Assembly (NCBI RefSeq): GCF_054482595.1 | Contig: NZ_CM137008.1 | Reading direction: 5' to 3' (one strand) | Length of the DNA stretch: 64,000 bases | In this document: piece by piece, positions 59,301 through 62,300 of the stretch | Layout of the letters: each line of letters opens with the position of its first letter | Position numbering within the stretch: position 1 is the first letter of the stretch | Program-made: the position numbers

Positions 59301-62300
59301 GTACTGCGCGATGCCACCCGTGCCGGTGCTGAAGTTATGCGGGATGCAGTTGTTGAACGTGCGCCGGAGCGAACCGGGAAACTGAAGAAAAATGTGGTTG
59401 TTCTCACTCAGCGTTCAAAGCGTCGGGGGGAAATTATCTCGGGTGTCCACATTCGTGGACGGAACCTGCGAACCGGAAACAGTGATAACAGCATGAAAGC
59501 CAGTGATCCCCGAAATGCGTTTTACTGGCGCTTTGTGGAGCTGGGAACGATAAACATGCCCGCGCATCCGTTCATTCGCCCGGCTTTCGATACGACAGAG
59601 GAACTGGCAGCACAGATTGCCATACAGCGAATGAATCAGGCTATTGATGAGGTCTTAAGTAAATGAGAGAGACCACACTGTATTCCCTGCTGTCTCAACT
59701 GGCCGGAGGACAGGTTTATCCTTATGTGGTCCCGCTGACGGAGGGAAAGCCTGCGGTATCTCCGCCATGGCTGGTATTTTCTGTGGTGTCTGACACTGCG
59801 TCTGATGTGCTTGATGGTCAGGCTGAATCCAGAATTACCGTGCAGATCGATGTCTGGGCAACAGTACCTGATGACGCAGATGATATCCGTGAGCAGGCGC
59901 TTGATGCGGTAAGGCAACTTGCACCCTCCGTTATTTCTAAAACTCAGGGTTATGATCCTGATTCCCGTCTGAGCAGAGCCACGCTTGAATTTCAGGTAAT
60001 AGCCTGAGGTCGTTAATGATTTTACCCACCCGCCGCTGGCGGGTTTTTTATTTTCAGGAGACGAGTATGTCCTCTAATTTTGAGCGTTCGCAACTGACGA
60101 AAATTATGATTTCGTCTGCACCGGTAACAGCAGAAACCCTGGATTCTGCCAGCTATCTTGGCCTGAGCTGTACAATCAAAGAGGTGCAGTTTACCGCAGG
60201 ACAAAAGCAGGATATTGATGTCACCACGCTGTGTTCTGTTGAGCAGGAAAATATTAACGGCCTTGGTGCCGCGTCAGAGATTTCCATGTCAGGCAACTTT
60301 TACCTCAATGCTGCCCAGAACGCGTTGCGCAGTGCCTATGACAATGACACCACGTATGGCTTTAAAGTTATTTTTCCGTCAGGCAACGGATTTACCTTTA
60401 TGGCAGAGGTGCGTCAGCATACCTGGTCTGCAGGAACTAATGGTGTTGTGGCTGCAACGTTTTCCCTGCGCCTGAAAGGTAAACCTGTGCTGACGACAGA
60501 GCCGCTGAAAGTGAAGGTCGATTTAAACAGCACGCTGCAGGTTTCTGCCGGAGCGAAACTCGAAATGGTGGTTGAGGCTGCCGGTGGTGTGCCGCCTTAT
60601 TCTTATGTCTGGAAGAAAGGTAGTTCTCCTGTTTCCGGACAGACGGCGGCAACATTCAGTAAGGCATCAGCAGCATCAGGTGATGCCGGTGCGTATACCT
60701 GCGAGATTTCTGATTCAGCAAGCCCTGTTAACAAGGTGACCTCCACTTCCTGCACTGTTACCGTCAGTTAATGAGGATAGATGTGATGACTAAAAATATC
60801 CGCAATCTGGCACTGGCAACGATGTCGGGGTTTCGCCATAAAACTGTTGATGTGCCTGAATGGGAAGGGGCAACGGTTGTATTACGGGAACCTTCTGCAG
60901 AAGCCTGGTTGCGCTGGCAGGAGATCGTTAAAGCAAAAGATGATGAGACACCGTTATCCGTTGCGGAGCGCGCCCGCCGAAATCTGGAGGCAGATGTTGA
61001 ACTGTTCATTGATGTTCTGTGTGATACCGGACTGCAACCTGTATTTTCAGAGGATGATCGTGAACAGGTGATTGCCGTGTATGGCCCGGTGCATGCGCGG
61101 CTTCTTCGGCAGTCTCTGGAACTGATCAGTGATGCCGGCGAGGTTAAAAAAAAGTAGCGCTTCCGGGGATGCGTTTTCTGATGATGCTGGCGCTCAGGAT
61201 GGGGCGCACATTGTCAGAGTTACGCCGGGAAATGTCCGCATCAGAAATCATGATGTGGGCAGAATTTGACAGGTTCAGCCCGCTGGGTGACGAGCGGGCT
61301 GATATCCGGGCTGCCCAGATAGTTTCTGCGGTTTACGGTGCGCAGGGTGTCAAAGTCCCACTGAATGATGCGCTTCTTCAGTGGGAACAAGAGCAGACAG
61401 AAGGCGTCTCAGATCCATTTGCCGGACTGGAAAACGCGCTTTTAATAGTGTCTCAGTGAGTCAACATAACCGCTTCGGCGGTTTTTTTCGTCCGGAGAAT
61501 GAGTGTGGCGACATTACGTGAACTGATTATTAAAATCTCGGCAAATTCCCGGTCATTCCAGTCAGAGATCTCCCGGGCTTCGCGTATGGGGCAGGATTAC
61601 TACCGTACCATGCAGAACGGAGGCCGGCAGTCCGCTGCTGCATCCCGTGAAATGCGGCGTGCACTGGCAGAAGTGACGGATCAGATAAATACAGCTAAAT
61701 CTTCGGCACTGAATATGGCGGGGGCATTTGCCGGAGCTTTTGCTACCGGTCATCTTATTTCTCTCGCCGATGAGTGGAATTCAGTAAATGCCCGTCTGAA
61801 GCAGGCTTCACAGTCCAGTGATGATTTTCAGGTATCACAACGTGAATTAATGGCAATCAGCCAGAGAACGGGAACGGCGTTTTCTGATAACGCCAGCCTT
61901 TTTGCCCGCTCTGCAGCTTCCATGCGGGAGTATGGCTACAGTTCTGAGGAGGTACTGAAAGTCACCGAGGCGATCTCCACGGGCCTGAAATTATCCGGTG
62001 CCAGTACAGCAGAAGCCAGTTCGGTGATCACGCAGTTCAGTCAGGCACTGGCGCAGGGAGTGCTGCGCGGTGAAGAATTTAACTCTGTGAATGAGAACGG
62101 CGATCGTGTTATTCGTGCGCTGGCTGCGGGAATGGGTGTTGCCCGTAAGGATCTGAAGGCCATGGCGGATAACGGAAAACTGACCGCCGATAAGGTTGTT
62201 CCTGCACTGATTAGTCAGCTTGGGGCGTTGCGTGATGAATATGCAGCAATGCCTGATACTGTTTCATCCTCTGCAACCAAAGTTGAAAACGCCTTTATGG

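What the first reader, a model, noticed from the sequence alone, without database searches (positions are those of the whole stretch)
60029..61488. Terminator-like hairpins inside the tail gene cluster
GC hairpins with T-runs precede the major tail gene and the tape-measure gene; they may tune stoichiometry (attenuation) in the late operon.
Basis: seen in the sequence. Interest (0 to 1): 0.25.

Follow-up and report, generated by a model that had tools for sequence, protein, structure and literature searches.

The report
Intrinsic terminators in prophage tail operon
Two textbook transcription-terminator hairpins sit just before the major-tail and tape-measure genes of an HK97-like E. coli prophage; the same sites are already marked as putative terminators in phage HK97, so the finding is real but ordinary.

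Summary
Both hairpins exist as described. Hairpin 1 is ACCCGCC-GCT-GGCGGGT plus a T-run at 60028-60054. Hairpin 2 is AACCGC-TTCG-GCGGTT plus a T-run at 61468-61488. Each fills a short gap on the late-operon strand and ends just before the ribosome-binding site of the next gene (major tail protein, tape measure protein). They are not chance: a strict scan finds 3 sites in the late operon against 0.03 in shuffles. All 15 species-level relatives and HK97 carry a hairpin plus T-run at both junctions. HK97's GenBank record already labels both sites "putative terminator". Hairpin 2 occupies the classic moron slot, where HK97 gene 15 lies. In 29 of 99 related loci the slot holds low-GC cargo genes, each with its own terminator. 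Here the slot is empty and keeps only the terminator and ribosome-binding site typical of a zinc-ribbon cargo. The prophage encodes antiterminator Q, and essential tail genes lie downstream with no promoter. Late transcription must therefore read through both hairpins. Attenuation to set stoichiometry is not supported: hairpin 1 precedes the most abundant tail protein, and lambda has neither hairpin. Verdict: real canonical terminators of a known kind, low interest.

The parts
60028..60044 (+). Hairpin 1: stem-loop ACCCGCC-GCT-GGCGGGT of an intrinsic terminator, between the tail-terminator/completion gene and the major tail gene
   Evidence: -12.0 kcal/mol. A homologous hairpin is present in 15 of 15 species-level relatives and in HK97. 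Across these, 93.9% of pair cells are paired, 4 pairs are invariant and 1 pair shows compensatory changes. HK97 annotates the homologous site, 6692-6719, as a putative terminator.
60045..60054 (+). U-tract of hairpin 1 (TTTTTATTTT), directly abutting the ribosome-binding site AGGAG (60056-60060) of the major tail gene
   Evidence: The T-run is conserved in alignment A2.
60067..60771 (+). Major tail (tube) protein gene with a C-terminal Ig-like domain; the true start is the ATG at 60067
60786..61157 (+). Tail assembly chaperone G (Phage_TAC_1)
   Evidence: E=2.4e-58, residues 1-123 match profile positions 1-124.
61148..61154 (+). Slippery heptamer A_AAA_AAG, immediately before the G stop codon; a -1 shift leads into the T frame (G-T fusion)
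   Evidence: Sequence. The T ORF lies in the -1 frame. The homologous HK97 gene is annotated 'translated due to a -1 frameshift'.
61169..61459 (+). T segment of the G-T tail assembly chaperone (Phage_tail_T)
   Evidence: E=3.1e-19.
61460..61504 (+). Empty moron slot: the 45-nt gap between T and the tape-measure gene; relatives carry 277-1688 nt of low-GC cargo here
   Evidence: HK97 gene 15 lies at the same junction.
61468..61483 (+). Hairpin 2: stem-loop AACCGC-UUCG-GCGGUU of an intrinsic terminator, identical to the terminator that ends the zinc-ribbon cargo cassette in relatives
   Evidence: -8.0 kcal/mol.
61484..61488 (+). Remainder of the U-tract of hairpin 2 (7 consecutive T from 61482); ribosome-binding site GGAG at 61494-61497
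   Evidence: The T-run length varies between 7 and 9 among close relatives.
61505..64000 (+). Tape measure protein gene (GTG start; runs off the end of the window)
   Evidence: The start is fixed by comparison with L004, which has an ATG at the same codon.
49114..49809 (+). Antiterminator Q gene, which makes the late operon terminator-resistant
   Evidence: PF06323, E=1.8e-91.
49876..49893 (+). tR'-like terminator downstream of Q (ACCCGC-CCACAA-GCGGGT plus a T-run)

Best explanation
Both elements are canonical Rho-independent terminators, co-oriented with the Q-dependent late operon of an HK97-like lambdoid prophage and inherited with the HK97-type tail module. Shown: they have the full terminator anatomy, they are far beyond chance, and a terminator occupies both junctions in every relative examined. 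Hairpin 1 is a vertically conserved element with an invariant CCGC/GCGG core and a freely varying loop. Hairpin 2 is the 3' terminator of the moron slot between T and the tape-measure gene. In this prophage the cargo gene is absent, and only the terminator and ribosome-binding site characteristic of the zinc-ribbon cassette remain. Inferred: the hairpins stop RNA polymerase that is not Q-modified. In the lysogen that would mean transcripts starting at cargo or stray promoters, or leaking past tR', which would keep tail genes silent. Q-loaded polymerase reads through them during lytic growth, because Q prevents terminator hairpins from forming in the RNA-exit channel. Their effect on late-gene stoichiometry by termination is therefore expected to be small. 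Any lytic-phase role would more likely be post-transcriptional, with the hairpins acting as 3'-exonuclease barriers in the read-through mRNA.
For: Anatomy and orientation. Non-randomness: 3 sites against 0.03 in shuffles. Conservation of hairpin 1: present in 15 of 15 species-level loci and in HK97, although the major tail protein is only 58-79% identical, and the spacer 5' of the hairpin cannot be aligned. Among 96 loci with a measurable gap, only one (L046) has a degraded stem. A terminator sits immediately before the tape-measure ribosome-binding site in all 99 loci, with at least 11 unrelated stems. Cargo properties: GC of 0.30-0.46 against 0.49-0.55 in the flanks; the cargoes are small membrane proteins and lipoproteins, including YebO/gp15-like ones. 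The terminator and ribosome-binding site travel with the cargo type. The zinc-ribbon cargo always has AACCGC-TTCG-GCGGTT, and in the close E. coli relatives this is followed by the same CGTCCGGAG..GTG leader as the window. The lipoprotein cargo has loop AGAA, a different ribosome-binding site and an ATG start. HK97's record annotates both homologous sites as putative terminators and gene 15 as a moron. The literature describes morons as carrying their own promoter and terminator, and places gene 15 between the chaperone and tape-measure genes (PMC3594210). Q gene and tR'-like terminator. Q mechanism: PMC9388147. Further terminators flank lom downstream in the Santai prophage, which is 99.4% identical to the window over the late genes. 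Viable induced phages carry both hairpins.
Against: No transcript 3'-end data exist for this element, so termination and Q read-through are inferred, not shown. Hairpin 1 has no cargo gene upstream in any of 96 loci, so which non-Q transcripts it stops is unknown. Two terminators (49876 and 50536) already guard the operon entrance, which makes a pure fail-safe role for hairpin 1 less compelling. Its strict conservation may reflect another function. Hairpin 2 here is a modest hairpin (-8.0 kcal/mol). With its cargo gone, it may be a functionless remnant in this prophage. The simple promoter scan did not confirm a sigma-70 promoter for the zinc-ribbon cargo; only a TTGACT -35-like hexamer is visible.
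Confidence: 0.65

Rival explanations
1. Partial terminators (attenuators) act during lytic growth. A fixed fraction of late transcripts ends at each hairpin, which lowers tape measure and minor tail proteins relative to upstream genes.
For: For hairpin 2 the arrangement fits: the major subunit and chaperone genes come first, then a hairpin, then low-copy genes. A terminator is present at this junction in 99 of 99 loci, including 70 with no cargo.
Against: The operon is Q-antiterminated (PMC9388147). Hairpin 1 would lower the most abundant tail protein relative to low-copy connector genes. The terminator sequence at the tape-measure junction follows the cargo type, not the tape-measure gene. 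Lambda has the same gene order and no hairpin at either junction. There is no conserved alternative structure.
Confidence: 0.1
2. The hairpins are post-transcriptional stability or processing elements. In the read-through late mRNA they block 3'-to-5' exonucleases, or protect a 5' end. The segment major tail-G-T that they bracket would then become a longer-lived sub-transcript, raising tube and chaperone output. This could operate alongside the terminator role.
For: The two hairpins exactly bracket the three genes needed in highest amount. A third strong hairpin (-20 kcal/mol, weak T-run) follows the major capsid gene at 58324-58345. HK97 has annotated hairpins after its capsid and tube genes. 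Hairpin 1 is conserved without any cargo, with an invariant stem core and a variable loop.
Against: There are no RNA data. A 3' hairpin stabilises the upstream segment, so hairpin 1 would stabilise connector-gene mRNA rather than tube mRNA. The full T-run is also conserved, which a pure stability hairpin does not need. Lambda does without these hairpins.
Confidence: 0.2
3. The hairpins are chance or neutral leftovers with no present function. This applies at least to hairpin 2, as a scar left when the zinc-ribbon cargo was lost.
For: The slot is empty only in closely related E. coli prophages (at least 96% identical in the major tail protein). Conservation there is therefore uninformative: only 4 gap variants occur, differing mainly in T-run length. 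The sequence from the hairpin through the ribosome-binding site matches the 3' end of the zinc-ribbon cassette exactly.
Against: Chance is excluded for both hairpins. Hairpin 1 is conserved across genera. Whether hairpin 2 is under selection in this clade cannot be decided from such close relatives.
Confidence: 0.05

Closest known systems
Putative terminators annotated in phage HK97 (NC_002167 features 6692-6719 and 8398-8422)
   Same: They lie at the same two junctions: tail terminator gene to major tail gene, and chaperone/moron to tape-measure gene. Hairpin 1 is clearly homologous (HK97 ACCCGCC-AGAT-GGCGGGT-TTTCTTTTT; window ACCCGCC-GCT-GGCGGGT-TTTTTATTTT). The layout of T-run, then AGGAGAC, then ATG is the same.
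   Different: The loop sequence differs. At the second junction HK97 has a different stem (ACCCGC-TATCAA-GCGGGT) and carries the gene 15 cargo, whereas the window's slot is empty. HK97 also has a hairpin between the tube gene and G, which the window lacks (14-nt gap).
Moron elements of lambdoid phages (first described for HK97 gene 15; Juhala et al. 2000 as summarised in PMC3594210)
   Same: The insertion site is the same. Relatives carry low-GC extra genes for small membrane proteins or lipoproteins there, each ending in its own intrinsic terminator.
   Different: The window holds no cargo gene and no promoter, only the terminator. It is a vacant slot or a remnant, not a moron.
Lambda-type Q antitermination of the late operon (pR'-tR')
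   Same: A Q gene, a tR'-like terminator directly downstream, and one long co-directional late operon that contains further terminators.
   Different: Lambda itself has no intergenic room at the U|V junction (7 nt) or at T/H (overlapping genes). The head genes here are HK97-type, and tRNA genes lie between Q and the lysis genes.
Intercistronic hairpins that set subunit ratios in operons (e.g. papBA, malEFG REP elements, puf operon); recalled from own knowledge and not tested here
   Same: The order at hairpin 2 is the same: major-subunit gene(s), then a stable hairpin, then minor-subunit genes.
   Different: In those systems the differential mRNA stability or partial termination has been demonstrated. 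Here nothing has been measured and the polymerase is antiterminated.

Membership tests
Rho-independent (intrinsic) terminator | G+C-rich perfect stem of about 5-12 bp with a short loop (3-8 nt) | tested here: met
   Hairpin 1 has 7 bp (6 G-C) and a 3-nt loop. Hairpin 2 has 6 bp (4 G-C) and a UUCG loop.
Rho-independent (intrinsic) terminator | U-tract immediately 3' of the stem | tested here: met
   Hairpin 1 is followed by TTTTTATTTT. Hairpin 2 has 7 consecutive T from the stem base.
Rho-independent (intrinsic) terminator | Co-oriented with the transcription unit and outside coding sequence | tested here: met
   Both are on the + strand in intergenic gaps. The minus-strand versions lack a T-run. 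The major tail gene start is fixed at 60067.
Rho-independent (intrinsic) terminator | RNA 3' ends form at the U-tract in vivo or in vitro | not testable with these tools
   No transcript data are available. Term-seq data for EHEC exist only in GEO (PMC7547250).
Moron cassette | An extra gene that is absent from otherwise collinear relatives | tested here: not met
   The window gap is 45 nt with no ORF. Cargo is present in 29 of 99 related loci.
Moron cassette | Base composition that deviates from the flanking phage genes | tested here: not met
   This cannot apply to the window's 45-nt gap. In relatives the cargo GC is 0.30-0.46 against 0.49-0.55 in the flanks.
Moron cassette | Own terminator at the 3' end | tested here: met
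   Hairpin 2 is identical to the terminator of the zinc-ribbon cassette.
Moron cassette | Own promoter, active in the lysogen | tested here: inconclusive
   There is none in the window. In relatives only a TTGACT -35-like hexamer is seen, and the scan reports no full promoter.
Regulated transcriptional attenuator | A conserved alternative (antiterminator) structure or leader that competes with the terminator hairpin | tested here: not met
   No conserved competing fold was found. The only alternative fold, in the tape-measure leader, uses downstream sequence. It therefore cannot act before termination, and it is confined to this variant.
Q-antiterminated lambdoid late operon | A Q gene followed by a promoter-proximal terminator and one co-directional late gene block | tested here: met
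   PF06323, E=1.8e-91. Terminator at 49876-49893. Gene order.
Any curated RNA family (Rfam 15) | Match at or above the gathering score | tested here: not met
   There are no hits between 51000 and 64000; the only hits are sok, DicF and tRNAs elsewhere in the window.

The most novel reading that the evidence does not exclude
Hairpin 1 is kept in every genus examined, with an invariant stem core and no cargo gene beside it. Together with the terminator before the tape-measure gene, it may be selected as an RNA-level device. Under Q antitermination the pair would bracket the major tail-G-T genes into a separately stabilised or processed mRNA segment, and so set tail-protein ratios. In that case the 'terminators' of HK97-like late operons would work mainly after transcription.
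Probability: 0.15. Interest if true: 0.4.

Novelty: already known. Interest (0 to 1): 0.12.

Why it matters
It matters little beyond annotation. The work fixes the start of the major tail gene at 60067 rather than 60016. Many automated gene calls (251-aa versions) wrongly translate through the terminator. It also identifies the gap between T and the tape-measure gene as a vacant moron slot. This tail module occurs in 904 of 5426 complete E. coli genomes, so the slot is a predictable place to look for small superinfection-exclusion or defence genes. One general question remains untested: why are intrinsic terminators conserved inside an antiterminated operon? That question is old, and this locus offers no special handle on it.

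Tried and rejected
(1) Rfam at gathering threshold over the whole window gave nothing at or near the hairpins.
(2) The long ORF starting at 60016 would make hairpin 1 coding. It was rejected because all diverged homologues start at the downstream ATG, and the 17-residue extension occurs only in gene calls from close relatives.
(3) The first IMG/VR scan returned only relatives at least 96% identical, which was useless for covariation. The GTDB scan gave the 15 diverse loci used instead.
(4) A terminator/anti-ribosome-binding-site switch in the tape-measure leader was considered. In the window the lowest-energy fold pairs CUUCGGCGG with CGUCCGGAG and hides the ribosome-binding site (-16.7 against -8.5 kcal/mol for the terminator fold). 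This fold is not conserved in relatives and cannot compete during transcription. It was rejected as a conserved mechanism and kept only as a local note.
(5) An Hfq-type sRNA 3' module was considered because of the U-rich stretch before hairpin 1. That stretch is not conserved in relatives.
(6) The promoter scan of the zinc-ribbon cargo found no qualifying sigma-70 promoter.
(7) Literature searches for 3'-end or transcriptome data on HK97-like late operons found nothing usable. Juhala et al. 2000 and Cumby et al. 2012 are not held.
(8) Covariation in hairpin 1 is weak. Only one pair shows double changes, so the support comes from conservation, not covariation.

Full report
**Context.** The window is E. 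coli chromosome carrying a lambdoid prophage. Positions 59000-62500 are 100% identical to E. coli O157:H16 Santai, and related sequence occurs in 904 of 5426 complete E. coli genomes, always on the chromosome. The same stretch is 96-99% identical to induced phages such as vB_EcoM-606R7, phi467 and Evi. The late genes all lie on the + strand, in this order:
- Antiterminator Q at 49114-49809 (PF06323, E=1.8e-91).
- A tR'-like terminator at 49876-49893, then four tRNA genes.
- A second terminator at 50536-50551.
- Holin and lysozyme genes, an HNH gene, terminase, portal, protease and an HK97-type capsid gene.
- Connector genes, ending with the tail terminator/completion gene at 59663-60007.
- The major tail gene at 60067-60771, chaperone G at 60786-61157, T (reached by a -1 frameshift, ending at 61459), and the tape measure gene from 61505.

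**The observation.** Both hairpins are present as described.
- Hairpin 1 is ACCCGCC-GCT-GGCGGGT at 60028-60044 (-12.0 kcal/mol). It is followed by TTTTTATTTT, then AGGAG, then the ATG at 60067.
- Hairpin 2 is AACCGC-UUCG-GCGGUU at 61468-61483 (-8.0 kcal/mol). It carries a run of seven T, then GGAG, then the GTG at 61505.

Neither hairpin has a T-run on the opposite strand. They fill the only two gaps longer than 20 nt in the tail cluster. A strict scan of the + strand from 50561 to 64000 finds three distinct sites. These are the two hairpins plus one inside the protease ORF at 56760-56779. One hundred dinucleotide shuffles give a mean of 0.03 and never more than one.

The longest ORF for the major tail gene begins at 60016 and would translate through hairpin 1. 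Phage Evi and many 251-aa database entries are annotated that way. All diverged homologues of 233-238 aa begin at the position of the ATG at 60067. Hairpin 1 is therefore intergenic.

**Relatives.** A scan of one genome per species gave 15 loci from Citrobacter, Serratia, Leclercia, Pectobacterium, Klebsiella, Kosakonia, Superficieibacter, Brenneria, Symbiopectobacterium and others. Their tube proteins are 58-79% identical to the window's.

*Junction before the tube gene.* Every one of the 15 loci has a hairpin plus T-run ending about 20 nt before the tube-gene start. In an alignment of 14 distinct versions:
- The stem core CCGC/GCGG and the first T residues are invariant.
- The loop varies freely (GCT, TCCG, TACG, GTAA, TTAAT, CAGAT, CATTGA, GGAA).
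- The spacer between the upstream stop codon and the hairpin cannot be aligned.
- 93.9% of pair cells are paired, four pairs never vary, and one pair shows compensatory changes (CG to AU or GC).

The support is therefore strong conservation of the structure with only weak covariation. In 96 loci with a measurable gap, the gap is always 37-63 nt and never holds a gene. Only one locus (L046) has a degraded stem.

*Junction before the tape-measure gene.* All 99 loci have a terminator-like hairpin immediately upstream of the ribosome-binding site, but with at least eleven unrelated stems. The gap is 45-47 nt in 70 loci, all close E. coli relatives of the window. It is 277-1688 nt in 29 loci, including all 15 diverse ones and HK97.

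The extra DNA has these properties:
- It is low in GC: 0.30-0.46 against 0.49-0.55 in the flanking genes.
- It encodes small membrane proteins or lipoproteins. These include a zinc-ribbon transmembrane protein (PF13248), several lipoproteins and YebO/gp15-like proteins.
- One locus holds two cargo genes, each with its own terminator.

The terminator and the downstream ribosome-binding site go with the cargo type. The zinc-ribbon gene always ends with AACCGC-TTCG-GCGGTT. In E. coli this is followed by CGTCCGGAGAATGAGT-GTG, exactly as in the window. The lipoprotein cargo in equally close E. coli relatives ends with AACCGC-AGAA-GCGGTT, followed by ATGGGTTAAAGTAA-ATG. The window therefore carries the 3' end of the zinc-ribbon cassette without the gene. 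It is a vacant slot or a deletion remnant.

**What is already known.** The HK97 GenBank record marks "putative terminator" at 6692-6719, between the tail terminator and major tail genes. The sequence there is ACCCGCC-AGAT-GGCGGGT-TTTCTTTTT-CCAGGAGAC..ATG, plainly homologous to hairpin 1. The record also marks a putative terminator at 8398-8422, after gene 15 ("moron product") and before the tape-measure gene. It marks others after the portal, capsid and tube genes. A review by the group that characterised gp15 states that gene 15 lies between the tail assembly chaperone and tape-measure genes. [quoted passage not shown] The finding is thus a further instance of annotated features of the type phage.

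**Mechanism.** That these are terminators is supported by anatomy, orientation and conservation. Termination itself has not been measured. Three points argue that late transcription must pass through both hairpins:
- The prophage has Q, and Q-loaded polymerase cannot form terminator hairpins in its exit channel (PMC9388147).
- The tape measure, tail tip and J genes lie downstream with no convincing promoter. Six weak promoter-like matches were found in 14 kb, against 10.8 expected.
- Viable phages keep both hairpins.

Further terminators flank lom beyond the window in the Santai prophage, which is 99.4% identical to the window over the late genes. The operon is therefore punctuated by terminators that Q must override.

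The most economical reading is that the hairpins act on polymerase that is not Q-modified. They would end cargo transcripts and block stray or leaky transcription into tail genes in the lysogen. In lytic growth they would be largely transparent.

The attenuation idea fits poorly, for three reasons. Hairpin 1 precedes the protein needed in the highest copy number. Hairpin 2 belongs to the cargo cassette. Lambda has the same gene order but a 7-nt U|V gap and overlapping T and H genes, so it has neither hairpin.

A post-transcriptional role remains possible and could coexist with the terminator role. The hairpins might act as exonuclease barriers that bracket the tube-G-T segment. A -20 kcal/mol hairpin with a weak T-run also follows the capsid gene at 58324-58345. 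I give this about 0.2.

What keeps hairpin 1 so strictly conserved without any cargo gene beside it is not explained by the evidence here.

**Side test.** In the window's tape-measure leader, the lowest-energy fold pairs the terminator loop and 3' arm with the ribosome-binding region. It scores -16.7 kcal/mol, against -8.5 for the terminator fold. Together with the GTG start this could lower tape-measure translation. The fold is not conserved in relatives, and it cannot form before the terminator has acted. It is not a conserved switch.

**Verdict.** The kind is already known and annotated in HK97. The stoichiometry-attenuation interpretation is not supported, although it cannot be fully excluded for hairpin 2. 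Interest is low.

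Noticed in passing
window 61148-61154: A classic -1 slippery heptamer, A_AAA_AAG, lies directly before the stop codon of chaperone gene G. It leads into the T frame and would give a G-T fusion. 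HK97's homologue is annotated as frameshifted.
   Followed up: partly
window 58324-58345: A very stable hairpin, GGGGGCGC-AGAAGT-GCGCCCCC (-20 kcal/mol), lies in the 51-nt gap after the major capsid gene. It is followed by only a weak T-run (TGTTCTGA). HK97 annotates a putative terminator at the equivalent place.
   Followed up: partly
window 56760-56779: A perfect 8-bp hairpin, GGCCGGTT-CGTT-AACCGGCC, followed by TTTCTATT, lies inside the prohead protease ORF on the coding strand. It passes the strict terminator criteria.
   Followed up: no
window 60016-60066: There is an annotation conflict. Phage Evi and many database entries call a 251-aa major tail protein starting at 60016, which translates through hairpin 1. 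RefSeq and all diverged homologues use the ATG at 60067.
   Followed up: yes
window 61473-61498: An alternative fold pairs CUUCGGCGG with CGUCCGGAG and hides the tape-measure ribosome-binding site (-16.7 against -8.5 kcal/mol for the terminator fold). The gene also starts with GTG. The fold is not conserved in relatives.
   Followed up: yes
L003 2962-3408; L083 5394-5842; L085-L100 (slot between T and the tape-measure gene): This slot is a hotspot for low-GC cargo in relatives. Cargoes include a zinc-ribbon transmembrane protein, several unrelated lipoproteins (some sharing a DPDSAKF motif), YebO/gp15-like proteins, a 296-aa protein in L096, and a 1.7-kb insert in L098 with a reverse-strand gene. 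Most have no Pfam match.
   Followed up: partly
window 49876-49893 and 50019-50551: A tR'-like terminator lies downstream of Q and also scores on the minus strand. It is followed by four phage tRNA genes (Met/Ile-type CAT, Lys, Thr, Gly) and a second terminator at 50536-50551, before the holin gene.
   Followed up: partly
window 36108-36197: A tRNA-Ser(CGA) gene is present. Part of it, about 78 bp (36136-36212), is repeated at 91% identity just past the tail-fibre end of the near-identical Santai prophage, beyond the window. This looks like the attachment-site duplication marking the left prophage boundary.
   Followed up: partly
window 40623-40674 and 46264-46439: DicF RNA and a sok antitoxin RNA (with hokD) lie in the early region of the prophage (Rfam). 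The early region is mosaic relative to strain Santai, at 95-99% identity in blocks.
   Followed up: no
window 60056-60075: The major tail gene's ribosome-binding region (GGAGAC) can pair with codons 1-3 (GUCCUC), forming a small hairpin around the start codon. A comparable small fold appears in many relatives with different sequence.
   Followed up: no
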